From positions 50,372-114,371 of the IMG/VR virus record IMGVR_UViG_3300028045_000008: DNA of 64,000 bases, one strand, 5' to 3'. The translations under genes were made by a program, and so were the position numbers. This stretch comes from a virus. A model generated the notes under the pieces. The model did no database searches and was not told the origin of the DNA. It saw only the letters and a list, made by a program, of their open reading frames with translations. Shown piece after piece: positions 49,182-62,935 of this stretch (its first letter is position 1; each line of letters starts with the position of its first letter).

Positions 49182-49206
49182 CAATCTGCTACTTTTGGTG
49201 TATAAT
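49178..49206 (+). promoter_or_regulatory. sigma70-type promoter
   Basis: TTGACA-17-TATAAT. Confidence 0.75.
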
Positions 49207-49228
49207 TTATAATATACACGGAGAAAAT

Positions 49229-49636
49229 ATGCGAGTAGATATTGAGTCTAGCGAACTAGAGGTGGAGCACTGCCTGGAGATGCTAATACCAAGGCTACAA
49301 AAAAAAGTGGACGACCGCCACAATCTTATCTGTGAAAAGAGTCCTTCCTCAACGATAGTCGGCAAGTCATTCTTGACCGAAAGTAGACCACCAGTCCTAA
49401 CAAAGAAGAAGGGAAGAGTTTATTGGAAATTGGCTCTTGAGAGCAGAAATGACTTCGGAGGACACTCCAGCACAGTATATGGATTTATCAGAAAGTCCGA
49501 TGGCGCCATATTTCGCCCTGCAACCTGGAGAAAACCGGAGACAAGAACAAGGAATGCCATTAAGGGCTTTGTAACAGAAGAATTCCCAGAAGATTACTTC
49601 ACTGCCTTCGGCGTGATATACGATATGGAGTGTTGA
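49229..49636 (+). CDS. Hypothetical phage protein
   Basis: RBS GGAG; GFIRKSDGAIFRPATWRKP. Confidence 0.7.
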   Translation: MRVDIESSELEVEHCLEMLIPRLQKKVDDRHNLICEKSPSSTIVGKSFLTESRPPVLTKKKGRVYWKLALESRNDFGGHSSTVYGFIRKSDGAIFRPATWRKPETRTRNAIKGFVTEEFPEDYFTAFGVIYDMEC

Positions 49637-49791: not shown

Positions 49792-49985
49792 GTTATGACA
49801 CACTCGGTGAAGGCAATATGATGTGGACAGTCATCTTTAGAACACTATGTGGAAAGCCGGATAGCTGTATCACATCGGGCCCACACTCAAAGGTGAAATG
49901 CTGGAACCTCGCAAATCAAAAATATAATCAATTGCTCGCTATCATACCGGGGAATCACCAAGTTTATACTAAAAAGGACTCTTGA
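49788..49985 (+). CDS. Small hypothetical protein
   Basis: 65 aa; stop TGA lies in the promoter repeat. Confidence 0.55.
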   Translation: MSYDTLGEGNMMWTVIFRTLCGKPDSCITSGPHSKVKCWNLANQKYNQLLAIIPGNHQVYTKKDS

Positions 49986-50036
49986 CATTCTCTTGACAAT
50001 TAAACACTAGACAAGACTAGAAATATCGTGTATAAT
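49981..50036 (+). promoter_or_regulatory. Composite promoter repeat 1 (drives tRNA)
   Basis: TTGACA 49982, TTGACA 49993, -35 TAGACA 50008, TATAAT 50031. Confidence 0.8.
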
Positions 50037-50049
50037 GTATATACATAAT

Positions 50050-50125
50050 ACGCTAGTAGCTCAGGGGTGAGAGCAGTCGTCTTATATGCGATTGGTCGGT
50101 GGTTCAAATCCACCCTAGCGTACCA
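50050..50125 (+). tRNA. tRNA-Ile (anticodon UAU) with encoded CCA
   Basis: ACGCTAG/CTAGCGT acceptor, GCTC/GAGC D-arm, GTCGT-CTTATAT-GCGAT anticodon arm, GGTGG-TTCAAAT-CCACC T-arm, ACCA. Confidence 0.93.
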
Positions 50126-50152
50126 TTTAACCCAGAACCATAAAGGTAAATC

Positions 50153-50407
50153 ATGATTAAAACTTGTAAACACTGTGAAATAGAATTCAATGTCAACTCG
50201 CGCCAGAAGCGCCTCGTCGGAGGATACATCAATGAGTGTCCAGATTGCGTCGAGGAGCGAGGTGGTGATAACTCGGAGCCCAAACACTTCGGAGTGACCG
50301 GCTCACTCGGTGACGATGTTTCGGTAGTTCGCTTTGATAGTCAAAAGAAGCGAGATCAATTCCAGAAAGAGTATGGAGAAATTAAAACCCTCAAAGACTT
50401 TTTCTAG
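50153..50407 (+). CDS. Zinc-ribbon small protein
   Basis: CKHC...CPDC. Confidence 0.7.
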   Translation: MIKTCKHCEIEFNVNSRQKRLVGGYINECPDCVEERGGDNSEPKHFGVTGSLGDDVSVVRFDSQKKRDQFQKEYGEIKTLKDFF

Positions 50408-50408
50408 T

Positions 50409-50464
50409 CTTGACATTCTCTTGACAATTTAACCATTGACTTTAACTTAAATAACGTGTATAAT
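50409..50464 (+). promoter_or_regulatory. Composite promoter repeat 2 (drives tRNA-like RNA)
   Basis: TTGACA 50410, TTGACA 50421, -35 TTGACT 50436, TATAAT 50459. Confidence 0.85.
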
Positions 50465-50468
50465 GTAT

Positions 50469-50563
50469 GTATAAATAGGGAGAGAGGCGCAGGTTCAAAT
50501 CCTGTCACGACCAAGGGACCAGTTGTGAAGTGTTGCTAGGTGGCACACTCGCCCTATTTATAT
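50469..50563 (+). ncRNA. Circularly permuted, anticodon-less tRNA-like RNA
   Basis: Terminal stem 50469-50484/50548-50563 encloses AGGC, T-arm GCAGG-TTCAAAT-CCTGT, acceptor-like hairpin CACGAC/GTTGTG, AA, D-arm GTGT-TGCTAGGTG-GCAC. Confidence 0.75.
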
Positions 50564-50587
50564 CACCAATCAATCCAGGAGCTTAAA

Positions 50588-50749
50588 ATGAACGACCCAA
50601 TACTAAATGACCTTATCCAAGTAGCTATTGAAGAATATTATAAGGAAGAACCTATTTATGGAGTAGATTATGATGAAATGCCAGAAGATTTAGAGGGCGA
50701 GTGCCCCGAGTGGATTAAGGAACAACTTGATGACGACATCCCATTTTAA
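50588..50749 (+). CDS. Acidic 53-aa peptide ending in SSB-type tail DDDIPF
   Basis: RBS AGGAG; MNDPILNDL...WIKEQLDDDIPF. Confidence 0.7.
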   Translation: MNDPILNDLIQVAIEEYYKEEPIYGVDYDEMPEDLEGECPEWIKEQLDDDIPF

Positions 50750-50975
50750 ACAAGGAACACAAACAATACTGAAGCCTAGCAAAAGGGCATCACAGCGGAC
50801 CCGAAATCGTATTCACGAAAAGGGTCCGTCTTTTATTGTCGAGCTTGAAGCGACAATGCTAACCAACACAGCCTCCTCAATTGATGGGAAAATTTGTATT
50901 TGCTTCCGAGGCGTTGACAACGACTGGTCTGGGTGGCTCCCTGTCGACGAGATCCACGTAATAACTTCACTATGA
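50730..50975 (+). CDS. Small hypothetical protein
   Basis: Ends WSGWLPVDEI, SH3-like tail. Confidence 0.55.
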   Translation: MTTSHFKQGTQTILKPSKRASQRTRNRIHEKGPSFIVELEATMLTNTASSIDGKICICFRGVDNDWSGWLPVDEIHVITSL

Positions 50976-50984
50976 GAAAGCAGC

Positions 50985-51206
50985 ATGAAAAGACAATACT
51001 TCCAGCCAGGGCAAATTGTTCAGCTAGACCGCCCAGAGTTGGGTGAGCGCGATACATGGAGATTTATTGTCCTATCTTCAACTCATCCACCTCGCCACCC
51101 TGGACGATATTCTCTTTATTGTATCCGAGCCCCATCTTATCGCAAAACAGACCTCAATACTGTCCAGTATATATCCGGTTGCAGCCTGCGAATAATGGAG
51201 GACTAA
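50985..51206 (+). CDS. Small SH3-like protein (array member)
   Basis: FQPGQIVQL...FIVL. Confidence 0.65.
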   Translation: MKRQYFQPGQIVQLDRPELGERDTWRFIVLSSTHPPRHPGRYSLYCIRAPSYRKTDLNTVQYISGCSLRIMED

Positions 51207-51209
51207 TAA

Positions 51210-51431
51210 ATGAAGTTTAAATCATCAGATTTCGATAGGGGCCAATTTTATAAGTTGAAAACTCAATCCTTTATTGTATTGGATAAGAAATCAATAAATG
51301 GGTGGTTCGACCGCATCTCTGTATATTTTGTCACTAACCGAAATAAACAGTTAAAAGGAAAGAAAAAAGATTTTACTACCGGCGGTTTTGAAATTTACTT
51401 AAACAAGCTCTCCCCCGGCGAACATAAATAA
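51210..51431 (+). CDS. Small SH3-like protein (array member)
   Basis: FDRGQFYKL..FIVL. Confidence 0.6.
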   Translation: MKFKSSDFDRGQFYKLKTQSFIVLDKKSINGWFDRISVYFVTNRNKQLKGKKKDFTTGGFEIYLNKLSPGEHK

Positions 51432-51436
51432 AACCT

Positions 51437-51492
51437 CTTGACATTCTCTTGACAATTTAGTTCTTTACTTTCTCTTGAAAAGCGTGTATAAT
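51437..51492 (+). promoter_or_regulatory. Composite promoter repeat 3
   Basis: TTGACA 51438, 51449; -35 TTTACT 51464; TATAAT 51487. Confidence 0.85.
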
Positions 51493-51518
51493 GTAGGTAT
51501 ACAAAAGAGAGTTGTGCC

Positions 51519-51791
51519 ATGCTAGATATCAATAGCTTAAAGTCAGGGCAAATGTTAAGATATTCCGTAAAATTGTATTCAACGCAGGAGCGCGTTGAAT
51601 CTTTGTGGATATTGTTGGAGGAAATGCCCGGCGCCGAATCGTGCTCGGCAAGATGGCAGGGCGCCCGAGCGTTTAAGATGTATCAAATATATGATAGCCA
51701 CAATGCACTGCGCCGCTTTCGGCAAAACCGACCGGTCGAATTCGTTTTTAATTTAAAGAGCATTCAGGATTTCGCATTGGAGGTGGTATGA
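51519..51791 (+). CDS. Small SH3-like protein (array member)
   Basis: LKSGQMLRY...WILL. Confidence 0.6.
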   Translation: MLDINSLKSGQMLRYSVKLYSTQERVESLWILLEEMPGAESCSARWQGARAFKMYQIYDSHNALRRFRQNRPVEFVFNLKSIQDFALEVV

Positions 51792-52000
51792 AAGACGAGC
51801 TTAAAGCAGGACAATTAAGAACAGTCGCTCGCGGCGGTCTTGAGGGCACAGTGGTTATTCTTTTGGATATACAGGACCACGCAAGGATGTTGACCCCTAA
51901 AAATCAGATTTGGGACTCGATTATCGTCTTTTCGCCCATCCCATACTGGGAGCCTGGCGAGAAAATTGGTCTGCGTGGCGTAGACTTAATGAATTGGTGA
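51788..52000 (+). CDS. Small SH3-like protein (array member)
   Basis: LKAGQLRTV...VILL. Confidence 0.6.
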   Translation: MKDELKAGQLRTVARGGLEGTVVILLDIQDHARMLTPKNQIWDSIIVFSPIPYWEPGEKIGLRGVDLMNW

Positions 52001-52024
52001 GCTAAGAATAGAAAGTTAATTCTT

Positions 52025-52080
52025 CTTGACATTCTCTTGACAATTTAGCCATTGACTTCAACTAAAAAAACGTGTATAAT
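52025..52080 (+). promoter_or_regulatory. Composite promoter repeat 4
   Basis: TTGACA 52026, 52037; -35 TTGACT 52052; TATAAT 52075. Confidence 0.85.
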
Positions 52081-52106
52081 ATAGATATAAAAACAGGAGC
52101 TATCAC

Positions 52107-52706
52107 ATGTCCGAACAAGCCAAAAGACTCGACGCCTTCTTGCTCGAAAACCAAATCTCTAAGAGTGAGCGCTCCTTTGGTGAATCTCTCAAACAGAGTA
52201 TTTCCAAGTGGGGAAAATTAACAGATAACCAGTGGAACGCCTTCCAGCGGATGGAAGCGCGCCACAGTCCGGAAGTAAAAGCAGCGCGGGAGGGGTGGCA
52301 TAAGAGTTGGGATGAAGAAAAAGCTAGAAAATTACGAATTGCTGTTGAATATTATTCCTATACTGAATATTATTCGAGAACGGTAAATGCTGTTCTTGCC
52401 GATTCCTCATTTGTACCTTCCGAAAAGGATTATCGAAAGATAGTCGAAAATAAATATGCCCAGAAAGTCATAGAAATTCTGGCAGAAGACCCACTTTATC
52501 CGGTTGGCAGTCTTGTTCAAGTCCGCAAAACTGCTCGCAAGCACGCCTATTCTTTGCGTGATAGGTGTGCCCTGGTTGTGGTGAATGATGGCCCAGTCAG
52601 ATCCGCCGCAAAAGGTTCTCGGACTTATACGATTCTGCCTTTCGGTGAATCTAACACCGTAACCGTCGAGGAGCGATGGCTCAAGAAGGCCAGGAAGGCG
52701 AAATGA
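52107..52706 (+). CDS. Hypothetical protein with C-terminal SH3-like domain
   Basis: F.ESL..Q..KWGKLT..Q; YPVGSLVQVR...VEERWLK. Confidence 0.75.
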   Translation: MSEQAKRLDAFLLENQISKSERSFGESLKQSISKWGKLTDNQWNAFQRMEARHSPEVKAAREGWHKSWDEEKARKLRIAVEYYSYTEYYSRTVNAVLADSSFVPSEKDYRKIVENKYAQKVIEILAEDPLYPVGSLVQVRKTARKHAYSLRDRCALVVVNDGPVRSAAKGSRTYTILPFGESNTVTVEERWLKKARKAK

Positions 52707-52957
52707 CCGCCGACATCACGCCAAAACTAGGCGATATACTCGAAGAGAACTGCTCAAGAACTGACTTCAAAGCAAGATATATTGTTTTATCTATCATATC
52801 AGGCGACAGTGAGTCAAGGCACGGAAATTCATATGAACTATACACCCTATATGTCGAATCTTCATCTGCAGCAGACCGGTCGTTACAAGGGACGATTGAC
52901 GTTGCATATAATCTGGAAATAAACAACCATCGCGACACATGGCGTATTATCTCTTGA
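52703..52957 (+). CDS. Small SH3-like protein (array member)
   Basis: PKLGDILEE...YIVL; stop lies in repeat. Confidence 0.65.
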   Translation: MTADITPKLGDILEENCSRTDFKARYIVLSIISGDSESRHGNSYELYTLYVESSSAADRSLQGTIDVAYNLEINNHRDTWRIIS

Positions 52958-53008
52958 CATTCTCTTGACAACTTTTCTCTTTACTTTCTTTTAAAAAGCG
53001 TGTATAAT
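52953..53008 (+). promoter_or_regulatory. Composite promoter repeat 5
   Basis: TTGACA 52954, 52965; -35 TTTACT 52980; TATAAT 53003. Confidence 0.85.
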
Positions 53009-53056
53009 GTATATGTAAGTTAGAGAAACAACCACAAACTTTTAGAGGCTATCACA

Positions 53057-53851
53057 ATGGCATACTCAAGAAATAAACACAAAAGAACCGTCCGCTGCTC
53101 ATACTGCCATAAATCGGGACACAATAAATCCTCTTGTTCTAGTAAGAGAGAAAGAATTGAGGAACTACGCGCCGTACATGGAGATGATTTTTACACTGTG
53201 CGCATGTACGACTTAAAAGAGGAGCGCCGAAAGGAAGGCGGGTCGTCAAGAACATGCTCCTATTGTTCCCAGGGTGGACACAACCGCGCGACCTGCACAG
53301 CCCTGAAGGGCCACATGGCTGAAACCAAAGTTAAAAACTCCGAATTCAGGAAGGCTGTTTATGAGCGTCTGTGCGCCAATGGCATTGGCATCGGAGCATT
53401 AGTTTCAAGTGACAATTTCCAGTGCAACGTCATCGCAGGCGATTATTCGTCAGGGGTCTATCGCGTTCCGCAAATCATAACAGATATAAACTGGCTCGGG
53501 ATAAATGTCTGGCATAAGGAACTATGGTATTTCGACTCGACTACCAATATCGATGGCGGTCAGCCTGCACCCATCTTTACGATTCCATTTGGGAAGATGG
53601 ACGATATTCGATGGAAGAACCCAATGGGATATCCATTTGACTCCAAACTTGTGCCGTTGTTCATAGGCGAGAAATATTTCAACGAATTGTGTGAGGGCAC
53701 TCACTGGCGCGCCGATAAAATTGGAGGTCATTTCATGACTGTTGAATCGCCAGTACCACCAACCGCCCCACCTGCTGGCTGGCTTGAGTCCGAGGACAAC
53801 AAAATTAAAGAGGTTTACAAGAACCGTAAGGACTGGCAAGGGGCTTTATAA
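53057..53851 (+). CDS. Protein with two CCHC zinc knuckles
   Basis: CSYCHKSGHNKSSC and CSYCSQGGHNRATC. Confidence 0.75.
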   Translation: MAYSRNKHKRTVRCSYCHKSGHNKSSCSSKRERIEELRAVHGDDFYTVRMYDLKEERRKEGGSSRTCSYCSQGGHNRATCTALKGHMAETKVKNSEFRKAVYERLCANGIGIGALVSSDNFQCNVIAGDYSSGVYRVPQIITDINWLGINVWHKELWYFDSTTNIDGGQPAPIFTIPFGKMDDIRWKNPMGYPFDSKLVPLFIGEKYFNELCEGTHWRADKIGGHFMTVESPVPPTAPPAGWLESEDNKIKEVYKNRKDWQGAL

Positions 53852-53864
53852 GCCCTTTATCGCC

Positions 53865-53920
53865 CTTGACATTCTCTTTACAATTAAAGTATTGATTTAT
53901 GTCTAAAAAACGTGTATAAT
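53865..53920 (+). promoter_or_regulatory. Composite promoter repeat 6
   Basis: TTGACA 53866, TTTACA 53877; -35 TTGATT 53892; TATAAT 53915. Confidence 0.85.
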
Positions 53921-53967
53921 GTATATGTAAGTTAGAGAAGCAACCAACACAACCCAGGAGACTTAAT

Positions 53968-55122
53968 ATGTCCATCGCTATCACATTCGCAAACCTCAAT
54001 TCAATGATTCCAACCCTTCTTTCAGGCGACGAAAACGACCTTTATTCGGTTCTTATTCGTGGTCGCCATGGCATCGGCAAATCTTGGATTGCCTATCAAA
54101 CCGCCCAGGGATTATCCTGGGACAAGGGCGCTAATAAGACGCGCCCAATTCAAGACGGTGAAGTTTCGCTTCCTGTAGTTGAGATTCGAGCCTCCCAGAT
54201 GACAGAGGGCGACCTTCTTGGATTACCATCTCCTCATGAAGTCAACATCAATGGCGAAAAGGCAGCTTCGCTGCGCCCTTTCACTTGGCTCGTAAAGGCT
54301 TGCACCGAGCCCGTCGTCCTCTTTCTCGATGAAGTTGACCGCGCGACAACCGAGGTTCGACAAGGCTTTTTCCAGCTTGGCGACAGTCGTCAAATCAACG
54401 GGTGGAAACTCCATCCAGGCACCGTCGTCTTCGGCGCTGTAAACGGCGGCGTTCATGCTGCACAATACCAAGTCGCCGACATGGACCCTGCAGAACTTGA
54501 CCGCTGGGTAACTTTCGACGTCGAACCATCGGTCGAAGATTGGCTTAACTGGGGCAAAACCGAGGTTCACTCCATCATCTGGGACTTCATTAATCAGAAC
54601 AAGGACCATCTGGAGCACAAGGGCGAATTTGAGCCAGGAACCGTTTATCCTTCTCGCCGCTCTTGGCACCGCTTGAGCAATACGCTTGCAAAGGTGAATA
54701 TGCTTGACAACGAAAAAGCAGATTTAGGGCTTCTCTTTAATCTATCCCACGGATTTGTAGGCTTCGAAGCAGCCGTGTCACTTCGCGACTTCGTGGAGAA
54801 TTACGAGCGTCAGGTTACTGTCGAGGATATCCTGGTCCATGGTAATGTGGATAAAACCTCTGGATTCGGTTTGGTCGACCACGTTGCCCTCATCGAAAAA
54901 ATGAATGCTGCTGAAGTATTCACTTCTTCGATTGAAGGCGATAAGATTGTGAATCTGGTAACCTATTTTGACGTGCTCCCATCCGAAGCACGCATGAAGT
55001 TGTTCACAACCCTGACCGCGGCCAACAGCCAGGTTTCCGCCGAGAATGGCGCTAATTTTCATCGCGAGCTAGCCAAGCAAGGCAAGGTCGAGGCGTTTAT
55101 TAAGCTTCTTGGTGGAAAATAA
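53968..55122 (+). CDS. MoxR-like AAA+ ATPase
   Basis: GRHGIGKS, GDLLGLP, LFLDEVDR, MDPAELDRW, PSRRSW. Confidence 0.85.
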   Translation: MSIAITFANLNSMIPTLLSGDENDLYSVLIRGRHGIGKSWIAYQTAQGLSWDKGANKTRPIQDGEVSLPVVEIRASQMTEGDLLGLPSPHEVNINGEKAASLRPFTWLVKACTEPVVLFLDEVDRATTEVRQGFFQLGDSRQINGWKLHPGTVVFGAVNGGVHAAQYQVADMDPAELDRWVTFDVEPSVEDWLNWGKTEVHSIIWDFINQNKDHLEHKGEFEPGTVYPSRRSWHRLSNTLAKVNMLDNEKADLGLLFNLSHGFVGFEAAVSLRDFVENYERQVTVEDILVHGNVDKTSGFGLVDHVALIEKMNAAEVFTSSIEGDKIVNLVTYFDVLPSEARMKLFTTLTAANSQVSAENGANFHRELAKQGKVEAFIKLLGGK

Positions 55123-55143
55123 GAGTGTGATAGCAAAGGTCGA

Positions 55144-55186
55144 AGCGCTAGCATCGGTTGGTTGTCCGATGCTAGCGCTCCCTTTC
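55144..55186 (+). terminator. Strong hairpin, probable terminator
   Basis: AGCGCTAGCATCGG/CCGATGCTAGCGCT 14-bp perfect stem, then pyrimidine run. Confidence 0.75.
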
Positions 55187-55187
55187 T

Positions 55188-55243
55188 CTTGACATTCTCT
55201 TGACATTTTAATCCTTTACTTATTCCCAAAAATCTGGTATAAT
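55188..55243 (+). promoter_or_regulatory. Composite promoter repeat 7
   Basis: TTGACA 55189, 55200; -35 TTTACT 55215; TATAAT 55238. Confidence 0.85.
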
Positions 55244-55268
55244 TCATATATAGAATGGAGTTTACCCT

Positions 55269-56633
55269 ATGACATCGACACCCTTTAATCTTGACGAACA
55301 TATTGTTGACCTGCTCCGAGATGAGCCTTTCTTCGCCGCTTTGTCGCGCCGTATGGAGAAAGTGGCCTCCAGGTCAGTTCCTACCGCTGGTGTAGCCTTC
55401 AACAAGGACCGATGCCGCTTTGAACTTTATTACAATCCCGAATTCATGGCAGATATGCTAGCCCAGGATAAGAAATATGTTAAAGGCATTCTGTTGCACG
55501 AATTTTATCACATCATGCTCCTGCACGTAACCTCGCGCATGCCAGACGGAGCCATGACTAAGAAATGGAATATCGCCACAGATTTAGCTATAAATTCCGA
55601 GCTAACCGTCTTTTCGCACGATTCTGACTCCCCCACTGGATACTCTGTGGAAAGCTCCATTCTGCCACTTGATAAGGCGTGTATCCCTACGGTCGGTCCC
55701 TTCGCAGAGTTCGCCCCGCATTTATCTGCCGAGCAATACCTATCCATCCTGCCGGATAGTCCAGAACCAGATGATAGTCAGTCTGGCCAAGGAGGCGGAC
55801 AGGAAGGCGGACAGGAAGACGGCCAAGGCGACGGACAGGAAGACGGCCAAGGCCAAGGCCAAGGCGACGGACAGGAAGACGGCCAAGGCCAAGGCCAAGG
55901 CGACGGACAGGAAGACGGCCAAGGCCAAGGCCAAGGCGACGGTAACGGCTTCGATGACCATACTGACTGGGGCTCATCGGATGGCGCAGACGAGGGAAGA
56001 AAAATTGCAGAAGAGCGCCTAAAGGAAGCAATCAAAGAGGCGTATGTCGAGGCCCAATCGCGGGGTTTTGGTTCCATCTCTTCTGGAATGAAGCGGACGA
56101 TTAAGGAGGTTATAACTCCTAAAGTCAACTGGCGTTCAATCCTACGCTCTTTCGTCAAGGCTTCGCAGAGAGCAGATAGAACCTCAACTATCAAACGCCT
56201 GAATCGCCGATACGCATACATCCACCCTGGTCGCAAGGCAAAGCGTCAAGCTAAAATCGCGGTTTCGATTGACCAATCGGGCAGTGTTTCCGATGGCATG
56301 CTCGTTGCATTTTACTCCGAACTTGAAAAGCTGGCAACCATCGCTGACTTCACGATTGTTCCCTTTGATACTGAGGTTGCAGAAGAACATATTCATGTTT
56401 GGAAGAAGGGTGAGCGACACGAGAAGACTCGATATAAGCATGGTGGAACCTGCTTTAACGCCCCAACCAAGTGGGTAAACGAGAACAAGTTTGATGGTCA
56501 CATTGTCCTGACTGATATGGAGGCTCCGAAGCCTATTCCCAGCAATTGCCAGCGTATGTGGATGACAACCAAGGCCCACGCAGAACGCCCTTACTTCCAG
56601 ACCAATGAACGAGTGATTGCAATCAATGACTAA
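55269..56633 (+). CDS. Metallopeptidase plus vWA-like protein (DUF2201-type MoxR partner)
   Basis: PTAGV, HEFYH, WNIATDLAIN, DDH..W, IDQSGSVS, GGTCF, LTD. Confidence 0.85.
   Translation: MTSTPFNLDEHIVDLLRDEPFFAALSRRMEKVASRSVPTAGVAFNKDRCRFELYYNPEFMADMLAQDKKYVKGILLHEFYHIMLLHVTSRMPDGAMTKKWNIATDLAINSELTVFSHDSDSPTGYSVESSILPLDKACIPTVGPFAEFAPHLSAEQYLSILPDSPEPDDSQSGQGGGQEGGQEDGQGDGQEDGQGQGQGDGQEDGQGQGQGDGQEDGQGQGQGDGNGFDDHTDWGSSDGADEGRKIAEERLKEAIKEAYVEAQSRGFGSISSGMKRTIKEVITPKVNWRSILRSFVKASQRADRTSTIKRLNRRYAYIHPGRKAKRQAKIAVSIDQSGSVSDGMLVAFYSELEKLATIADFTIVPFDTEVAEEHIHVWKKGERHEKTRYKHGGTCFNAPTKWVNENKFDGHIVLTDMEAPKPIPSNCQRMWMTTKAHAERPYFQTNERVIAIND
55785..55942 (+). repeat. In-frame G/Q/D tandem repeat (36-bp unit x3 plus partial copies)
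   Basis: GGACAGGAAGACGGCCAAGGCCAAGGCCAAGGCGAC. Confidence 0.9.
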
Positions 56634-56859
56634 CTCTCACCTCAAAATCGATGATGTCGAAGATTTAAAAGCTGGGGATATAATCTGTATCCCCAGCCTT
56701 CATCGTGGCGAGTGGTCGAGACTTGTTATATACGAGGTCACGAAAAGACTGTTTAAAACTTATGTATTACTTGATGAAACTCGTGCGTGGAAGCCAGGAG
56801 ATTTATATAGTTTTCAGATAATCGACCTGGACCCTACGAAATGGAGGTTGGTTGCTTGA
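56626..56859 (+). CDS. Small SH3-like protein (array member)
   Basis: LKAGDIICI; stop lies in repeat. Confidence 0.65.
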   Translation: MTNSHLKIDDVEDLKAGDIICIPSLHRGEWSRLVIYEVTKRLFKTYVLLDETRAWKPGDLYSFQIIDLDPTKWRLVA

Positions 56860-56910
56860 CATTCTCTTGACAAACTTTTCCTTTACTTTTCCTCCAAAAT
56901 TTGGTATAAT
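56855..56910 (+). promoter_or_regulatory. Composite promoter repeat 8
   Basis: TTGACA 56856, 56867; -35 TTTACT 56882; TATAAT 56905. Confidence 0.85.
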
Positions 56911-56933
56911 ATGTATATAGGATGGAGGTTAAC

Positions 56934-57185
56934 ATGAAGTTTAAGCCGGGAAATTTATTAAAGCATAAGAAAAACGGCGGGCTCTGGATTGTTATTGAAA
57001 CTCGCCAGATAAATAAAAAAGGTCCACGCAGGCGCCCGACTGTTTTCAGGATGCAATTGGATGCTGTTTGTATCCAGCCTGGACTAAGTAAGTGCAATCA
57101 TGCAGGGCTAGCCGATACCTGGTACTGTAAAGAAGAAGATGGAAGCGACCACGATGATAATTGGACGGTGATAAATGAAGTTTGA
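56934..57185 (+). CDS. Small SH3-like protein (array member)
   Basis: MKFKPGNLLKH...WIVI. Confidence 0.7.
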   Translation: MKFKPGNLLKHKKNGGLWIVIETRQINKKGPRRRPTVFRMQLDAVCIQPGLSKCNHAGLADTWYCKEEDGSDHDDNWTVINEV

Positions 57186-57408
57186 ACCAGGAGATTTAAT
57201 CGAAGAAGTCGTCGACGGTCAAGCCGATGCCCGATGCATTGTGGTAAAGCTTGAGAATCATCCGGTGGTTCCTGGGTTATCAGATTATACCCTTTATCTA
57301 GTGTGGGCGGCACCCCAGGCCTGGGGACATCCACCATGGAAAACCTTGATTTTAACGAATGCCGTGGTTGAGTCTTCTGATGACGATTATTACTGGAGGA
57401 AAGCATGA
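57175..57408 (+). CDS. Small SH3-like protein (array member)
   Basis: MKFEPGDLIEE. Confidence 0.7.
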   Translation: MKFEPGDLIEEVVDGQADARCIVVKLENHPVVPGLSDYTLYLVWAAPQAWGHPPWKTLILTNAVVESSDDDYYWRKA

Positions 57409-57638
57409 AATTTAAAGTCGGAGATTTAATAGCTCATAAGCCGATGCAGGGTTTAGGTTCGCTCGTTGAAGCGATTATCCTGGAGCACTGGCAAACTGAG
57501 AATTACTGGACAAAAGATGTCGTTGATAATGTACATTTATTCATAACTTTCGACGAGGATGACCCGACAGCAGTTAGCGATATTGACACAATGACCAGCT
57601 TCAAAGACCAGCATTGGAGCTTGAAAAGTGAGGTTTAA
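57405..57638 (+). CDS. Small SH3-like protein (array member)
   Basis: MKFKVGDLIAH; NVHLFITFD. Confidence 0.7.
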   Translation: MKFKVGDLIAHKPMQGLGSLVEAIILEHWQTENYWTKDVVDNVHLFITFDEDDPTAVSDIDTMTSFKDQHWSLKSEV

Positions 57639-57858
57639 ATCCGGAGATATTGTCGCTTACGGCATGAATAATAAGCCAGAGATACAGGGCGTTATCGTCA
57701 ATCTCAGTAAAGAGCCAAACCCGTGGAAAGCGGGAACCATTGCTAATGTGGATCTATTCATCACTTTCGACGCCTCGTGGCCTTCTAAACTACACAAAAT
57801 TGAGACGTTTTGCAACTTTAACCCCGATGTCTGGGAGTTGAAAAATGAAAAAGGGTGA
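57628..57858 (+). CDS. Small SH3-like protein (array member)
   Basis: MRFKSGDIVAY; NVDLFITFD. Confidence 0.7.
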   Translation: MRFKSGDIVAYGMNNKPEIQGVIVNLSKEPNPWKAGTIANVDLFITFDASWPSKLHKIETFCNFNPDVWELKNEKG

Positions 57859-58078
57859 TTTGATTCAGTTTGTATCTGCACATGAAAAACATCGATGCAG
57901 GGGGATTATTTTGGAGAACGTTCCAGAAGATGATAATCAATTACCTCGAATCCGCATCGCTGTATATATGTATTATGTCCCAGCATGGAATAATCTTAAA
58001 TCAGGGGAAATCTGGGATATCAAGTTGAGCAAATTGAATAAGCTTTACCGGGTTTTAAATAAAGCTAAGACTAACTAA
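57845..58078 (+). CDS. Small SH3-like protein (array member)
   Basis: MKKGDLIQF...GIIL. Confidence 0.7.
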   Translation: MKKGDLIQFVSAHEKHRCRGIILENVPEDDNQLPRIRIAVYMYYVPAWNNLKSGEIWDIKLSKLNKLYRVLNKAKTN

Positions 58079-58081
58079 GGT

Positions 58082-58339
58082 GTGAAGAAATACCACCCAG
58101 GCCAAATTGTACGATATGAAAGAACGGGAGCTATATATTTGCTAATGGAGGAGATAGAAATATCAATGCTTTCGCCTCATTTTTTCAAAGGGACAGGCCA
58201 GGGATTTAGGGCCCTCATCCTTTATGCTGGTCGCAGTTGGTCAAAGGGTGGCACCGAGATAGAGATTTTTATATTGCGAAAGTCGGCATATTACGAGGTT
58301 TTATCGGACGTCCCCAGCGCCGCCGCCGACCCCAGATAG
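58082..58339 (+). CDS. Small SH3-like protein (array member)
   Basis: YHPGQIVRY..IYLL. Confidence 0.7.
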   Translation: MKKYHPGQIVRYERTGAIYLLMEEIEISMLSPHFFKGTGQGFRALILYAGRSWSKGGTEIEIFILRKSAYYEVLSDVPSAAADPR

Positions 58340-58402
58340 TTGGTGATTAGCGCGCCTAGCGCGATTTTTTTTCGCTAAATTTTTTTTCAATAGGATTACA
58401 TT

Positions 58403-58660
58403 ATGAAGTTTAAACCAGGCAATATCTTGGAACACTGCCCCACTAAGACAAGATGGATTGTATTATCCGCAGAGAATATCGAGAAAAGAACAGGAATAAA
58501 CAGCGCTTACAAGCTAGAGGTAGAAGCATTTTGTGTTTATGTAGGGGAGCATGATAGGGCAAACAGATATTGGGATGTTAATCAGCGTGACATCTTTGTT
58601 TTGACGCAGCAAGATTTAAACCCGAGTGATATAGTGTGGGAGGTCAAGAATGAAATTTAA
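58403..58660 (+). CDS. Small SH3-like protein (array member)
   Basis: MKFKPGNILEH...WIVL. Confidence 0.7.
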   Translation: MKFKPGNILEHCPTKTRWIVLSAENIEKRTGINSAYKLEVEAFCVYVGEHDRANRYWDVNQRDIFVLTQQDLNPSDIVWEVKNEI

Positions 58661-58841
58661 ACCAGGACAATTAGTTAGGAAGAAGGCCAGAAAAGGAGAT
58701 CCCGACGCAATTTATTATGTGCTTGATGCGAGTTATCCCAAAATGCTGATTCATTGTGTGGAATCACTCTTCGATTTTATGCAGGGGAAAAGCTATGAAG
58801 TCGGGGTAGGTGAATGTGAGTTAATAACGGATTACCGATGA
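58650..58841 (+). CDS. Small SH3-like protein (array member)
   Basis: MKFKPGQLVRK. Confidence 0.7.
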   Translation: MKFKPGQLVRKKARKGDPDAIYYVLDASYPKMLIHCVESLFDFMQGKSYEVGVGECELITDYR

Positions 58842-59074
58842 GGTTGAAGTCAGTCAGAATTAAAGCAGGCGATATCGTAACGCTAGATTATGCGCGTGAA
58901 AGTCCGAAAGGAGAGGCACCACTATTCATAGCGCTAGAAAATCCGACGTCGATACATTATTCAATGAATGTCTATTGCTTCTATAGCCCAGGGGGTATAC
59001 AGCATACCGCTTGGCTTCATGCAACTTTCGACATATCCCAAAGCAGGTTAATAAAGTTCAATTATACAGGATGA
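58838..59074 (+). CDS. Small SH3-like protein (array member)
   Basis: IKAGDIVTL. Confidence 0.65.
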   Translation: MRLKSVRIKAGDIVTLDYARESPKGEAPLFIALENPTSIHYSMNVYCFYSPGGIQHTAWLHATFDISQSRLIKFNYTG

Positions 59075-59089
59075 ACCCCTACTTAGGAT

Positions 59090-59359
59090 GTGAGAGAATT
59101 CTTACCAGGTGATTTAGTAGTAGAAACCATGGATAACCGAGTGTTGGCCTATTACATAATATTAACCAGGCATTATTTAGATGGAAACAGGGACAGCTTA
59201 ATCTTGGGATATTATTCACTAATCGTTTATAGTACGGGTCACGCGTTGCCAACTCACTCGCCAGGTTCGAATTGGTTCATCAAGCATTCTGATTTACAAA
59301 AGTCAAATTTTCGCTTGTTAGTTGGCGCCAGGATAGAAGACCTAGAAACCATGGAATAA
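59090..59359 (+). CDS. Small SH3-like protein (array member)
   Basis: FLPGDLVVE..YIIL. Confidence 0.7.
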   Translation: MREFLPGDLVVETMDNRVLAYYIILTRHYLDGNRDSLILGYYSLIVYSTGHALPTHSPGSNWFIKHSDLQKSNFRLLVGARIEDLETME

Positions 59360-59361
59360 GC

Positions 59362-59715
59362 ATGAAAACTAAGAAAGAGTGTTCAAACGTGAGAGCTTTG
59401 AGAGAATCCATCTGCCCAGGTGATATCCTAGTTGAAAAGTCATTTGTCAAAGAATCCGGTGATAGAGATGTAGTAAGCATATTCCTAGTATTAAACAGGC
59501 ATATGGAGAGGGATGGCTTGGGCCTTGATAGTTTCACGAGGACAATTTATTATAAAACATTCCTATTATACGTTGAACCTAATGATTGGGCAGATGTCGA
59601 CTTTAGAGTTAACTCCACATATTATCTATCAGAGCATGAAATCACAGATCACCACATGTGGGAAAAACTGTTTGAATCTGACTTGTCATGGAAAGATAGT
59701 TATCCGAGGACATAA
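59362..59715 (+). CDS. Small SH3-like protein (array member)
   Basis: CPGDILVE; WEKLFESDLSW. Confidence 0.7.
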   Translation: MKTKKECSNVRALRESICPGDILVEKSFVKESGDRDVVSIFLVLNRHMERDGLGLDSFTRTIYYKTFLLYVEPNDWADVDFRVNSTYYLSEHEITDHHMWEKLFESDLSWKDSYPRT

Positions 59716-59723
59716 AAGATAAT

Positions 59724-60026
59724 ATGTTAGAGTTATTTCCAGGTGATTTAATAAGTGAGAAAGAGAACAATCAAGAGATCGCTCGCTATCTAGTAATAAG
59801 CAGAGTTATCCAGAATCAAAATGCACAGTATTGTACCTTCGATTATGTAGAGTATAACTGCATTATCACGTACTTCAATGGAAAGGTATATCATCGCCCC
59901 GAAAAGGTAGGAACATGGTGGATAATCGACACAATCAATTTGAACAGCAACAGGGAGGATTGGGAAGTGGTGGTAAGAAGCGGACTATCATGGAGTGACG
60001 AGTATGAAAAAGAAAATAGAGCTTAA
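59724..60026 (+). CDS. Small SH3-like protein (array member)
   Basis: FPGDLISE; WEVVVRSGLSW. Confidence 0.7.
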   Translation: MLELFPGDLISEKENNQEIARYLVISRVIQNQNAQYCTFDYVEYNCIITYFNGKVYHRPEKVGTWWIIDTINLNSNREDWEVVVRSGLSWSDEYEKENRA

Positions 60027-60360
60027 ACCTGACAAATCAGACCGCTTCTTGGAGCCAGCCCCTGGAGATATCATAAGGGAATACTACTATACCGAGACAT
60101 GGCCTAAAAAAGAGATTGAAATAGGACAATGGTTAGTATTAGGAAGAAGACATGTAATAAATGAAGAATTATTTCAATCAATAGGAAGAGCGAGATTATA
60201 CTACTGCCTCGTTATAAAGGTTAATACTGACATATCGTGGGTTAACTCAAGAGTAGGACAAACCAGAGGAATCATCTCTCAAAAGTTTAATTCTAATAAA
60301 TGGGAAGTAGTGGTAGAAAGTGGGTTATCGTGGGAAGAAGATAAGTATGACATTGAGTAG
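60004..60360 (+). CDS. Small SH3-like protein (array member)
   Basis: APGDIIRE; WEVVVESGLSW. Confidence 0.7.
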   Translation: MKKKIELKPDKSDRFLEPAPGDIIREYYYTETWPKKEIEIGQWLVLGRRHVINEELFQSIGRARLYYCLVIKVNTDISWVNSRVGQTRGIISQKFNSNKWEVVVESGLSWEEDKYDIE

Positions 60361-60605
60361 ATCTAAACACGGGAATTAAAGAATCACAATAGGTATGGAG
60401 GAAATAGGGGAATCACGGTGTCGATATAGTACGTTGTAACTAGAATGTCAAGCGCCATTGTTGTAAAGATTCTGTCAATTCTTCATATATTTACTTGACA
60501 AACATAAACACGCTTATATACCCCTTTATCGCAATCACACTGCCAATATCACGTGATTAATCATATGTCACTATCAAACACACTAATCGCGTGTCAAGTA
60601 TTTAA

Positions 60606-60673
60606 TTGTCAAAAGAATGTCAAGCAAGATATACTAGATTCCCCTTGACTTATCCCCTGCTTTATGATATATT
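60606..60673 (+). promoter_or_regulatory. Inverted tandem box plus sigma70-type promoter
   Basis: TTGTCAAAAGAATGTCAAG (reverse complement of the repeat), then TTGACT 60645-17-TATATT 60668. Confidence 0.7.
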
Positions 60674-60689
60674 AGTATTATAGGAGAGA

Positions 60690-60830
60690 ATGATGGAAGC
60701 ACTATTACGCAATATACTCCTGCTCTTTGGAGTATTGTTCATAATCGACTTTGTAACTGAGTATCCTCAGACCTTTGATAATGTCGGTGAAACCGTTGAT
60801 AACATTAAAGCCAAATTAGGCACTAAGTAA
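60690..60830 (+). CDS. 46-aa single-TM peptide (not in ORF track)
   Basis: RBS AGGAG; MMEALLRNILLLFGVLFIIDFV... Confidence 0.6.
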   Translation: MMEALLRNILLLFGVLFIIDFVTEYPQTFDNVGETVDNIKAKLGTK

Positions 60831-60840
60831 GGAGAGAATC

Positions 60841-60927
60841 ATGACAGCACGATTACCAGAGATTATTATTACGATATCGTTCGCTTATCTGACAGCATTC
60901 GCATTGTATGCTTTCATACTAGCTTAA
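60841..60927 (+). CDS. 28-aa hydrophobic peptide (not in ORF track)
   Basis: RBS AAGGAG; MTARLPEIIITISFAYLTAFALYAFILA. Confidence 0.55.
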   Translation: MTARLPEIIITISFAYLTAFALYAFILA

Positions 60928-61034
60928 TCTAAAAACACGTCATTCGCACCGATTTGACAGAAAAGTGATGGAGAGCCTATAAATAAATTATAATTATCCT
61001 CAGCCATATAGGGGGTTGCAAGTAGTATGTCGTC

Positions 61035-61090
61035 CTTGACATTTCTTTGACATTCATTATGTGTACTTCGGGCCCAATTCGCGGTATAAT
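61035..61090 (+). promoter_or_regulatory. Composite promoter repeat 9
   Basis: TTGACA 61036, 61047; -35 TGTACT 61062; TATAAT 61085. Confidence 0.75.
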
Positions 61091-61114: not shown

Positions 61115-61306
61115 ATGAATAAAAAACGCCGTTCATATCGACCACGCAAGCCAGCGCGCCCGCCTTGGATTGTCTGTTGGATTCATAACACAACAGGATT
61201 CGCAGATGCATCAACTGTATATGCGAAAGACGAGGAACAAGCTAAGTTATTGGCGTCTAACGGTTACACTTCAAACATCACAATTACCGGCGTTTATCGC
61301 GCTTAA
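61115..61306 (+). CDS. Small basic protein
   Basis: RBS GAGGGGAG; MNKKRRSYRPRKPARP. Confidence 0.65.
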   Translation: MNKKRRSYRPRKPARPPWIVCWIHNTTGFADASTVYAKDEEQAKLLASNGYTSNITITGVYRA

Positions 61307-61328
61307 TCACCCAGCAGAGGATAATAAT

Positions 61329-61736
61329 ATGAAAGATATCAGATTAATGATTGCAGAAAAAATGGAAGACATGCTTGACGAGCTTTTGGTCGATGTCGCC
61401 GATGAGCTTGGTTTGGATGACGTCGATTTAGATTGGGACGTTCGGCAAGCTTTGGACGCCAATTGTCAAGATAAATGGGGTACTATGGCCGACAATATTG
61501 CAGAAGCAACCGAGAATCACGTCCAGGAGTGTGCTGCAGCAGAATCGAATCGCATGCTTGAAGAGTGGAAAACTTGGTGCTTGCCCATTATCAAGGAAGA
61601 ATGCGAACAAGATGGCCATATCGATGGTCCCGCTCGCCGTGAGGATTGGTGCAATTTTCTTGATGCCAAGTCGAAGAACGGCGAACTATCTCAGTTTCTC
61701 GTTGATATCATTGATGCTGACGTTGAGGCTGTATAA
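61329..61736 (+). CDS. Acidic hypothetical protein
   Basis: RBS GAGGA; D/E-rich; REDWCNFLD...GELS. Confidence 0.7.
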   Translation: MKDIRLMIAEKMEDMLDELLVDVADELGLDDVDLDWDVRQALDANCQDKWGTMADNIAEATENHVQECAAAESNRMLEEWKTWCLPIIKEECEQDGHIDGPARREDWCNFLDAKSKNGELSQFLVDIIDADVEAV

Positions 61737-62656: not shown

Positions 62657-62684
62657 AAGCCAGGTAACCCCTGGCTTTTCTTTT
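62657..62684 (+). terminator. Intrinsic terminator ending the small-gene region
   Basis: AAGCCAGG/CCTGGCTT stem, then TTCTTTT. Confidence 0.8.
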
Positions 62685-62935
62685 GTCAAGGATTATTATC
62701 AGGCTTTACATTCTCTTGACAACTAAATGCTTGACACCCTATAGAGCAGTAACAAACTTATATAATACGAATTGACACAAAGTTTACATATGTCATAGTA
62801 ATAAAAGAGTTTACAAGTATTTGACATATCACAATAACAAAGGAACAAACTGATTTGTCACAGCAAGCAAACGATTTGTCAGGATAAAGCACGCTAATGA
62901 GGGGTACCCCCCCTCCCCCCTCACTCCCCGGAAAG
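62684..62935. repeat. Cluster of TT(G/T)ACA tandem boxes followed by a C-rich tract
   Basis: 11-bp-spaced pairs at 62705/62716, 62772/62783, 62810/62821; GATTTGTCA x2; GGGGTACCCCCCCTCCCCCCTCACTCCCC. Confidence 0.75.

What the first reader, a model, noticed from the sequence alone, without database searches (positions are those of the whole stretch)
49981..61090. Nine composite promoters with an invariant TTGACA-N5-TTGACA upstream box define a cassette regulon
Seen: CTTGACATTCTCTT(G/T)ACA (one copy with a variant spacer) recurs with first hexamer at 49982, 50410, 51438, 52026, 52954, 53866, 55189, 56856 and 61036. Geometry is identical each time: box2 is 11 bp after box1, the -35 is 15 bp after box2, and TATAAT follows a 17-bp spacer. 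The true -35 is always non-consensus (TAGACA, TTGACT, TTTACT, TTGATT, TGTACT), whereas unboxed promoters in the first 49 kb have perfect TTGACA. Known: 11-bp-period direct repeats of TGTCA or TTHACA are the signature of OmpR/PhoB-family sites (Pho box, Bacillus PhoP box). Inference: the whole small-gene region is activated by one tandem-binding factor, possibly the host phosphate regulator. Alternatives are a phage activator or tandem sigma region-4 docking sites.
Basis: partly seen in the sequence, partly recalled or inferred. Interest (0 to 1): 0.8.

Follow-up and report, generated by a model that had tools for sequence, protein, structure and literature searches.

The report
Double-box early promoter cassettes, marine phage
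Nine bacterial-type promoters in a large uncultured ocean phage each carry two extra, rigidly placed TTGACA boxes just upstream; a whole clade of such phages shares the design, and the boxes look like the docking site of a two-headed DNA-binding regulator that is not yet identified.

Summary
Nine + strand sites have the layout TTGACA-N5-TTKACA, 9 bp, a -35-like hexamer, 17 bp, TATAAT. There are also box units and box arrays without a good -10 at 60446-60623 and 62684-62826.

The window is the end of a 114-kb fragment of a roughly 190-kb marine T4-related myovirus. The same 17-mer heads promoters in 89 IMG/VR stretches. Four complete relatives carry 7-11 copies each, on one strand, within about 12 kb.

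Boxed and unboxed promoters are two discrete classes. In the boxes, T2, A4, C5 and A6 are 98-100% kept.

Distant relatives replace the boxes with an A/T-rich upstream region, or with a 10-bp-period GTKACA/ATTACA pair that resembles OmpR and HLR1 sites.

Best reading: an upstream site for a head-to-tail dimer, most likely a host OmpR/PhoB-type regulator, that recruits or modulates RNA polymerase. A phosphate link is untested.

The cassettes also mark indel boundaries, as PeSLs do in T4-type phages. This scan found the same clade design before on other genomes.

The parts
49982..50036 (+). Boxed promoter P1 (box1 49982, box2 49993, -35 TAGACA 50008, -10 TATAAT 50031); drives tRNA-Ile(TAT) at 50050-50125
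50410..50464 (+). Boxed promoter P2 (-35 TTGACT); heads a run of small ORFs 50540-51431
51438..51492 (+). Boxed promoter P3 (-35 TTTACT); ORFs 51519-52000
52026..52080 (+). Boxed promoter P4 (-35 TTGACT); 199-aa protein 52107-52706, conserved through the clade (alignment A1), C-terminal SH3-like part
52954..53008 (+). Boxed promoter P5 (-35 TTTACT); 264-aa protein 53057-53851 with zinc-finger matches (Pfam zf-C2H2_10, two stretches)
53866..53920 (+). Boxed promoter P6 (box2 TTTACA, -35 TTGATT); AAA_5/MoxR-type ATPase 53968-55122
55189..55243 (+). Boxed promoter P7 (-35 TTTACT, TGn), preceded by a 14-pair hairpin 55144-55179; DUF2201 metallopeptidase/VWA protein 55269-56633
56856..56910 (+). 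Boxed promoter P8 (-35 TTTACT, TGn); heads the array of about 77-120-aa SH3-like microproteins 56922-60360
61036..61090 (+). Boxed promoter P9 (spacer TTTCT, -35 TGTACT); followed by a 24-aa arginine-rich ORF at 61116 and ORF 61170-61736
60446..60623 (-). Two triple-box units on the minus strand (60623-60592 and 60478-60446) without a consensus -10 and with no minus-strand ORF downstream. They lie inverted upstream of a + strand promoter TTGACT-17-TATATT at 60645-60673
   Evidence: conserved in G001
62684..62826 (+). Array of eight hexamers (three box pairs plus singles) after a terminator hairpin 62657-62677, followed by a G/C-rich element at about 62900-62932
   Evidence: the same layout is in G001, L021, L047, L048, L061 and L066

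Best explanation
The nine sites are real sigma-70-type promoters (near-consensus -35, 17-bp spacer, TATAAT, often TGn, a short leader, then a Shine-Dalgarno site and start codon, or a tRNA). They head the gene cassettes of the phage's hyperplastic early region. The two upstream boxes span about -61 to -45, centred near -53. They form a separate cis element read by a sequence-specific protein other than sigma region 4. That protein binds as a head-to-tail dimer on one face of the DNA, next to the -35, where it can touch the alpha C-terminal domain or sigma. The most likely effect is recruitment or activation of host RNA polymerase, in the place where T4 early promoters and distant relatives of this phage have an A/T-rich UP element. 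The most likely reader is a host OmpR/PhoB-family response regulator. Longer phased arrays of the same boxes in two intergenic hubs would bind the same protein cooperatively. Shown: the architecture, its conservation, the two promoter classes and the conservation profile. Inferred: protein binding, its identity and the sign of the effect.
For: There are 12 matches against 0.03 expected, with fixed 11/15/17 geometry. P1 sits 14 nt before a tRNA gene, which must be transcribed. The exact 17-mer is in 89 IMG/VR stretches, nearly all in the same architecture. Four complete relatives of 190-205 kb have 7-11 copies, all on one strand and within about 12 kb, although proteins of G002 are only about 30-60% identical to those of G001. 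Among 373 core promoters defined without the boxes, 204 have at most 1 of 12 box mismatches and about 150 sit at background, so the boxes are a discrete element. The -10 lies 49 bp after box 1 in 74% of sites and 48 bp in 19%. In 289 boxed promoters, box positions T2, A4, C5 and A6 are 97.6-100% kept and T1 and G3 85-92%. The -35 of the same promoters runs 91/88/84/77/74/29%. A perfect -35 occurs in 13% of boxed against 50% of unboxed promoters. Distant relatives drive the same gene from an A/T-rich upstream region, or from a 10-bp-period GTKACA-N4-ATTACA pair placed 9 bp before TTGACT. That variant matches the (G/T)TTACA(T/A)(T/A) repeats of HLR1, whose upstream cluster is centred between -66 and -45 of the start site (PMC6525291). 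Phased arrays of up to 10-12 hexamers exist without a -10. No Trans_reg_C domain is encoded in five phage records, so a winged-helix regulator would have to come from the host.
Against: No binding or expression data exist. The host is unknown, so no host regulator or regulon can be matched. The exact 17-mer is at about chance level in 185,579 species genomes: 68 stretches against about 69 expected by my arithmetic. TTGACA-N5-TTGACA shows no clear excess over the reversed control in 301 Gammaproteobacteria. The core promoters are strong on paper (5 of 6 in the -35, perfect -10, TGn) and may need no activator. A lytic phage that depends on a conditionally active host regulator for early genes would be unusual. 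The half-site equals the universal -35 consensus, which may not be a coincidence.
Confidence: 0.5

Rival explanations
1. The reader is a phage protein of unrecognised fold. It is either made from the unboxed consensus promoters or delivered with the virion. It acts as an activator of a delayed-early class or as the shut-off repressor of early promoters. The arrays would then be its autoregulatory or titration sites.
For: The boxes are kept unchanged among phages whose proteins are only 30-60% identical. Two promoter classes exist, as with T4 early and middle promoters. Subclades differ in box sequence and period (TTGACA at 11 bp against GTKACA/ATTACA at 10 bp), as expected if reader and site co-evolve. 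Box arrays lie next to phage genes, including a second gp55-like gene in G001.
Against: No HTH, winged-helix or ribbon-helix-helix Pfam family appeared among the 25 families listed (of 39 matched) for 53 small proteins shared by G001, G002 and G003. There is no Trans_reg_C. The only sigma-region-4-like mini-protein is confined to G002 and G004 and is absent from G000, G001 and G003 even in a --max HMM search. PDB sequence searches of three conserved cassette proteins found nothing. Within a genome, box variants are mixed rather than lineage-specific.
Confidence: 0.25
2. RNA polymerase itself reads the boxes. They would be extra docking sites for sigma-70 region 4, or a surrogate UP element for the alpha C-terminal domains, possibly after phage modification of alpha as by T4 Alt. 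Local polymerase concentration would rise without any other factor.
For: The hexamer is exactly the -35 consensus. The boxes occupy the zone of alpha-CTD contacts. Distant relatives have an A/T-rich UP-like tract at the same place. T4 early promoters are UP/-35/TGn/-10 promoters helped by Alt (PMC2988021).
Against: The conservation profile of the boxes (ACA invariant, T1 and G3 variable) is the reverse of that of the sigma-read -35 in the same promoters. No -10 lies 17 bp after either box. A perfect -35 copy just upstream would compete with the true, weaker -35. The sequence is not A/T-rich. Arrays of 10-12 phased hexamers make no sense for one polymerase.
Confidence: 0.12
3. One reading: the reader is the host phosphate regulator (PhoB/PhoP), so that the cassette region is switched on under phosphate limitation.
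For: The core TGACA at 11-bp period is the reverse complement of the TGTCA repeats of the E. coli Pho box. TTNACA-N5-TTNACA on the coding strand upstream of the -10 is the Bacillus PhoP layout (both from my own knowledge of those systems). Phosphate limitation is common in the sea, where this phage is widespread.
Against: The orientation is inverted and the position is upstream of an intact -35, unlike E. coli Pho promoters. G at position 3 lies outside the Bacillus PhoP consensus. The 10-bp-period variant in a subclade looks more like OmpR or RpaB sites. The tool results link neither this gene set nor the motif to phosphate. The host is unknown.
Confidence: 0.1
4. The boxes have no binding function. 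They are kept alike because the whole promoter repeat serves as a homology patch for recombination that shuffles cassettes, and it spreads between co-infecting phages.
For: Indels between G000 and G001 start and end at the promoter repeat. One example is the extra cassette G001 166728-167937, which lies between two promoter copies. This is the behaviour described for PeSLs (PMC2839356, PMC4122927).
Against: Between lineages the core promoter and leader differ (TATAAT-GTATAT against TATATT-ATATGTATAGAAAGGAG), while the boxes stay the same. Mismatches are confined to two of six positions. Box pairs also occur alone in arrays and in inverted orientation. Recombination needs no 11-bp phasing.
Confidence: 0.05

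Closest known systems
PeSLs (promoter-early stem-loop cassettes) of T4-type phages RB49/phi1, T4/PST and KVP40/nt-1 (Arbiol et al. 2010, PMC2839356; Comeau et al. 2014, PMC4122927)
   Same: A repeated composite motif (upstream part, sigma-70-like -35 and -10, Shine-Dalgarno, start codon) heads small, fast-changing ORFs in a hyperplastic region of a T4-related myovirus. Indels between close relatives are bounded by the repeat.
   Different: Known PeSLs have a stem-loop and an A/T-rich tract upstream of the -35. Here only P7, the 62705 unit and by eye P6 follow a hairpin. The upstream part is instead two sequence-specific TTGACA boxes at fixed distance, which also form stand-alone arrays.
Tandem binding sites of OmpR/PhoB-family response regulators: OmpR sites next to the -35 of ompF/ompC, E. 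coli Pho box, Bacillus PhoP boxes, cyanobacterial HLR1/RpaB
   Same: Direct repeats of a TTNACA/TGACA-type hexamer at 10-11-bp period. Longer phased arrays occur. The position just upstream of the -35 matches the upstream HLR1 cluster, whose centres lie between -66 and -45 (PMC6525291). A subclade variant (GTTACATT-TC-ATTACATC) is almost an HLR1 motif.
   Different: No regulator, host or regulon is known. The main form has G at position 3 and an 11-bp period, which fits none of the published consensus sequences exactly. It is inverted relative to the E. coli Pho box. The phages carry no psbA or hli, so a cyanobacterial host (RpaB) is unlikely.
T4 early promoters (UP/-35/TGn/-10) with Alt modification of alpha, and T4 middle promoters with MotA/AsiA (PMC2988021)
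   Same: Strong host-type promoters of a T4-related phage with an extra upstream element. There is a second promoter class distinguished by an added phage-specific box.
   Different: The T4 upstream element is A/T-rich and read by alpha-CTD. The MotA box replaces the -35 at -30 and is single. Here the -35 is kept and the boxes lie at -61 to -45 as a pair.
Lambda CII sites (TTGC-N6-TTGC) and iteron arrays bound by small repeat-binding proteins such as ParR at parC of plasmid R1 (my own knowledge)
   Same: Short direct repeats one helical turn apart at promoters, and arrays of 11-bp-phased repeats bound cooperatively.
   Different: CII repeats straddle the -35. ParR arrays repress and serve segregation. 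No homologue of either protein was seen here.

Membership tests
PeSL-type mobile promoter cassette | Repeated composite of a sigma-70-like early promoter, Shine-Dalgarno site and start codon heading ORFans in a hyperplastic region of a T4-type phage | tested here: met
   Nine copies in 11 kb head small ORFs. The phage has a T4-like major head protein, sheath, portal, gp32-like and gp55-like genes.
PeSL-type mobile promoter cassette | Stem-loop (terminator) directly upstream of the promoter | tested here: inconclusive
   The scan found clear hairpins only before P7 (55144-55179) and before the 62705 unit (62657-62677). By eye there is a short one before P6. Six promoters have none.
PeSL-type mobile promoter cassette | Insertions, deletions and replacements between close relatives are bounded by the motif | tested here: met
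   In G000 against G001, alignment blocks break at or within about 20 nt of the boxes. G000 P2 aligns to two G001 promoters that flank an extra 380-aa gene.
OmpR/PhoB-family response-regulator site | Direct repeat of hexamer half-sites at 10-11-bp period, read on one DNA face | tested here: met
   The 11-bp period is invariant. A 10-bp variant occurs in a subclade. Arrays are phased.
OmpR/PhoB-family response-regulator site | Bound by a winged-helix response regulator | not testable with these tools
   No binding data. No Trans_reg_C is encoded by G000-G004. The host is unknown.
OmpR/PhoB-family response-regulator site | The same motif marks a regulon in the host chromosome | tested here: inconclusive
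   The exact 17-mer is at chance level in species genomes. There is no clear excess in 301 Gammaproteobacteria. The true host may not have been sampled, and host sites need not be perfect.
E. coli-type Pho box promoter | CTGTCAT repeats on the coding strand that replace the -35, 10 bp upstream of the -10 | tested here: not met
   The boxes read TGACA on the coding strand, lie at -61 to -45, and the -35 is present.
Sigma-70 -35 element (extra copies) | Read by region 4: TTG best conserved, ACA least, with a -10 16-18 bp downstream | tested here: not met
   In the boxes ACA is 98-100% kept and T1 and G3 are least conserved. The true -35 of the same promoters shows the opposite pattern. No -10 follows either box.
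UP element | A/T-rich tract at -40 to -60 read in the minor groove by alpha-CTD | tested here: not met
   The consensus is cTTGACATTCtCTTGACAA, with G and C invariant. A/T-rich tracts occur instead in distant relatives that lack boxes.

The most novel reading that the evidence does not exclude
An abundant clade of marine T4-related phages wires its whole early cassette region, and two intergenic box arrays, to one tandem-binding protein. That protein is either a hijacked host two-component regulator, which would make early phage expression depend on the host's physiological state, or a new kind of phage transcription factor. Either would be a takeover mechanism distinct from Alt/UP elements and from MotA/AsiA.
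Probability: 0.3. Interest if true: 0.8.

Novelty: new variant of a known kind. Interest (0 to 1): 0.6.

Why it matters
T4-type phages are the model for how a virus redirects bacterial RNA polymerase. The known solutions are very strong UP/-35/TGn/-10 early promoters, ADP-ribosylation of alpha, and sigma appropriation by MotA/AsiA. This clade is widespread in seawater metagenomes and has a different, strictly conserved upstream element in the same place.

The element gives a sharp, testable handle. It is a 17-bp probe, with two natural variants (11-bp and 10-bp period) and natural controls (unboxed promoters in the same genomes). It would also help to identify the unknown host. The motif is a precise marker for early cassettes and recombination junctions when annotating these genomes.

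Tried and rejected
1. Close or distant DNA relatives among cultured phages: none. The nearest cultured major-head proteins are 37-49% identical (Microcystis phage Mel-JY01, Flavobacterium phage immuto, RM378). Mel-JY01 has no box pair.

2. Literature search for the 17-mer: no paper.

3. Host search:
- The genome-contig scan is at chance level.
- The only bacterial record with phage-type cassettes is a scaffolded WOR-3 MAG. It holds phage-like pieces with SH3-like microproteins at five places, which looks like binned phage DNA and is not proof of a host.
- One 1.9-kb contig in a Gammaproteobacteria MAG is also a phage cassette.
- 301 Gammaproteobacteria show no clear excess of the pattern. Other classes were not sampled.
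- A cyanobacterial host is unlikely, since four complete genomes have no psbA or hli.

4. Phage-encoded reader:
- No Trans_reg_C.
- A Cys-rich mini-protein with a sigma region 4.2 helix-turn-helix occurs only in G002 and G004.
- Pfam and PHROGs on conserved small proteins gave a gp55-like late sigma and no DNA-binding regulator.
- PDB sequence searches of the 199-aa family, the zinc-finger protein and the DUF7717-like protein found nothing.
- Genes next to the box arrays are not the same family across lineages.

5. Lineage-coordinated box variants as a sign of co-evolution: not seen within the TTGACA clade.

6. Sequencing runs: no RNA holder listed. Read laying was therefore not used, and start sites could not be mapped.

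7. Structure prediction and fold search were not used, because no candidate stood out.

Full report
**What is there**

The pattern TTGACA-N5-TTKACA occurs 12 times in the window, against 0.03 expected from shuffles. Box 2 starts 11 bp after box 1. A -35-like hexamer starts 15 bp after box 2. TATAAT follows a 17-bp spacer.

Taking the -10 as -12 to -7, the boxes span -61 to -56 and -50 to -45, and the pair is centred near -53.

- Each promoter is followed after about 20-30 nt by a Shine-Dalgarno site and a start codon.
- P1 is instead followed after 14 nt by tRNA-Ile(TAT) at 50050-50125. A tRNA gene needs a promoter, so this supports real function.
- The -35 hexamers are all imperfect (TAGACA, TTGACT, TTTACT, TTGATT, TGTACT).
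- Box-free promoters with a perfect TTGACA lie at 36874, 46130 and 49178, with further ones at 21872, 26243 and 28945. They sit before GroEL, replication-region genes and others.

- Two lie on the minus strand at 60446-60623, each with a third TTGACA 15-16 bp on but no good -10.
- A + strand array of three box pairs plus singles lies at 62684-62826, after a terminator hairpin and before a G/C-rich element.

**Context**

The window is the last 64 kb of a 114-kb IMG/VR record, estimated 63% complete.

- It is a myovirus with a T4-like major head protein, sheath, portal and terminase, a gp32-like protein and a gp55-like late sigma.
- It has a DnaE-type polymerase, DnaB, ribonucleotide reductase and GroEL.
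- It has no near relative among cultured phages.
- The stretch is held by seawater and marine metagenome runs from 15 studies.
- Genes under the boxed promoters are: a tRNA; many ORFans; a 199-aa protein conserved through the clade; a 264-aa protein with zinc-finger matches; a MoxR-type AAA ATPase; a DUF2201 metallopeptidase/VWA protein; and a long run of SH3-like microproteins.

**Conservation**

The exact 17-mer TTGACATTCTCTTGACA occurs in 89 IMG/VR stretches, almost always in the same architecture.

- Four complete relatives of 190-205 kb carry 7-11 box pairs each, all on one strand and within about 12 kb.
- G001 proteins are 60-95% identical to those of the window's genome, G003 about 50-80% and G002 only about 30-60%. 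The boxes are nevertheless the same.
- The core promoter and leader differ between lineages (TATAAT-GTATAT against TATATT-ATATGTATAGAAAGGAG).
- The consensus over 252 canonical sites is c.cTTGACATTCtCTTGACAA.tta...cTTGAC.t, then tg.TATAtT and a short leader ending in ggag.
- The repeated unit is therefore about CTTGACAW plus a 3-nt pyrimidine linker.

**A discrete element with its own reader**

I defined promoters only by their -35 and -10 and then asked what lies at the box positions.

- Of 373 unique core promoters, 204 have at most 1 mismatch in the 12 box positions and about 150 sit at the random background of 6-10. Few fall in between.
- The distance from box 1 to the -10 is 49 bp in 74%, 48 bp in 19% and 50 bp in 4%.
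- In 289 boxed promoters anchored only on the -10, box positions T2, A4, C5 and A6 are kept in 97.6-100%, and T1 and G3 in 85-92%. Replacements are C at position 1 and T or A at position 3.
- The -35 of the very same promoters shows 91/88/84/77/74/29%, the usual sigma-70 pattern with TTG best kept. It has a final A in only 29%.
- A perfect TTGACA -35 is found in 13% of boxed and 50% of unboxed promoters (Fisher p = 5e-14).

So the boxes are read by something that insists on T.ACA, unlike sigma region 4. The true -35 seems to avoid being a third perfect box. Neither box has a -10 at 17 bp.

**Arrays**

Several relatives have intergenic hubs with 6-12 hexamers in 200 bp.

- Many are arranged as pairs or as runs in perfect 11-bp phase. 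L043 has ten in register.
- They often lie next to a G/C-rich GGGGTACCCC..CCCC element.
- The window has two such hubs, and both are conserved in G001.
- Cooperative binding of one protein along one DNA face explains them. A single polymerase or mere homology does not.
- The neighbouring genes are not the same family across lineages, so the arrays do not point to a reader gene.

**What replaces the boxes in distant relatives**

I fetched homologues of the 199-aa cassette protein without using the motif.

- About half of 40 loci have a boxed promoter directly upstream.
- More distant ones have a consensus promoter preceded by an A/T-rich tract like a UP element (L243, L251, L259).
- L255 and L256 instead have a pair of GTKACA/ATTACA hexamers at 10-bp period, again 9 bp before TTGACT.
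- One such pair, GTTACATT-TC-ATTACATC, almost fits the HLR1 motif of the cyanobacterial regulator RpaB: (G/T)TTACA(T/A)(T/A), two nucleotides, then a repeat.
- HLR1 sites cluster at two positions, one with centres between -66 and -45 of the start site (PMC6525291).

The box element therefore sits where an upstream activating element belongs. It comes in variants typical of OmpR/PhoB-family sites.

**Who reads it**

- Five phage records encode no Trans_reg_C domain.
- A small Cys-rich protein with a sigma region 4.2 helix-turn-helix exists in G002 and G004. It is absent from G000, G001 and G003 even in an unfiltered HMM search of all six frames. It cannot be the common reader.
- Among the 25 Pfam families listed (of 39 matched) for 53 small proteins shared by G001, G002 and G003, none is a known DNA-binding regulator.
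- PHROGs, Pfam and PDB searches of the conserved cassette proteins gave nothing.
- A host winged-helix regulator is thus the most economical reading, but the host is unknown.
- The 17-mer is at chance level in 185,579 species genomes: 68 stretches against about 69 expected if bases were equally frequent, by my arithmetic.
- The few phage-type copies in bacterial records are phage-like pieces in a scaffolded WOR-3 MAG and a 1.9-kb contig of a Gammaproteobacteria MAG.
- 301 Gammaproteobacteria show no clear excess of the pattern.
- Four complete genomes have no psbA or hli, which argues against picocyanobacteria and thus against RpaB itself.

The phosphate-regulator idea is possible, but nothing specific supports it. 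Compared with the E. coli Pho box the repeats are inverted and lie upstream of an intact -35.

**Cassette behaviour**

- Between the window's genome and G001, alignment blocks break at the promoter repeat.
- P2 aligns to two G001 promoters that flank an extra 380-aa gene.
- Other small G001-specific ORFs are inserted directly before boxed promoters.
- This is the behaviour of PeSLs in T4-type phages (PMC2839356, PMC4122927).
- Known PeSLs have a stem-loop and an A/T-rich tract upstream, not two specific boxes. Here only P7, the 62705 unit and, by eye, P6 follow a hairpin.

**Verdict**

The link to the phosphate regulator is untested, and sigma docking is disfavoured.

I take the design to be a new variant of the known T4-type early promoter cassette, with an unidentified reader. 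I found no paper that contains the 17-mer.

My analysis was made before I saw them and agrees with them. What I add is:
- the position-by-position contrast between boxes and -35;
- the bimodality test;
- the motif-free sampling through a cassette gene;
- the negative searches for a phage-encoded reader.

Noticed in passing
window 62684-62932 (also G001 180768-181000; L021, L042, L043, L048, L080): An intergenic hub holds an array of phased TTGACA/TTTACA box pairs followed by a conserved G/C-rich element (GGGGTACCCC..CCCC). It is a candidate origin, enhancer or titration site. In G001 it lies directly before a second, divergent gp55-like gene (181118-181840).
   Followed up: partly
L178 1360-1617 (G002 163332-163589) and L179 1378-1614 (G004): A 79-86-aa protein with a Cys-rich N-terminus and a clear sigma-70 region 4.2 helix-turn-helix (Pfam Sigma70_r4, E = 1e-11). 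It is a stand-alone region-4 mimic found only in this subclade. It could be a gp33-like co-activator or a -35 competitor.
   Followed up: partly
window 53968-56633: A MoxR-type AAA_5 ATPase and a DUF2201 metallopeptidase/VWA protein, each with its own boxed promoter. The pair is conserved in G001 and G003, with the VWA protein and an AAA-like ATPase also in G002. It is a typical MoxR-VWA chaperone-like pair placed among early genes.
   Followed up: partly
window 61116-61190; G001 179209-179400: The first ORF after P9 begins with an arginine-rich stretch (NKKRRSYRPRKPAR), like the RNA-binding arm of antiterminators. It is 63 aa in G001 but stops after 24 aa in the window.
   Followed up: no
L144, L170, L174, L175, L177 (CP070664.1, WOR-3 MAG 'chromosome'): Five dispersed places carry complete phage-type boxed cassettes with SH3-like microproteins and a DUF7717 protein, next to ordinary bacterial genes and runs of N. 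This is either binned and scaffolded phage DNA or a real link to a host.
   Followed up: partly
L109, L113, L120, L121, L128, L129 (Flavobacteriaceae MAGs): The exact 17-mer lies in one conserved, non-phage context (…CACAAACTC-17-mer-GTTTTAT…) in six loci from marine Flavobacteriaceae MAGs. Two Gammaproteobacteria (L218, L219) share GTTAC-rich flanks around TTGACATACTCTTGACA. These may be host sites of unknown meaning.
   Followed up: no
window 49178-49636 (G001 165471-165887): A DUF7717-like 138-152-aa protein sits behind a box-free consensus promoter, immediately before the boxed cluster. The synteny is kept in G003.
   Followed up: partly
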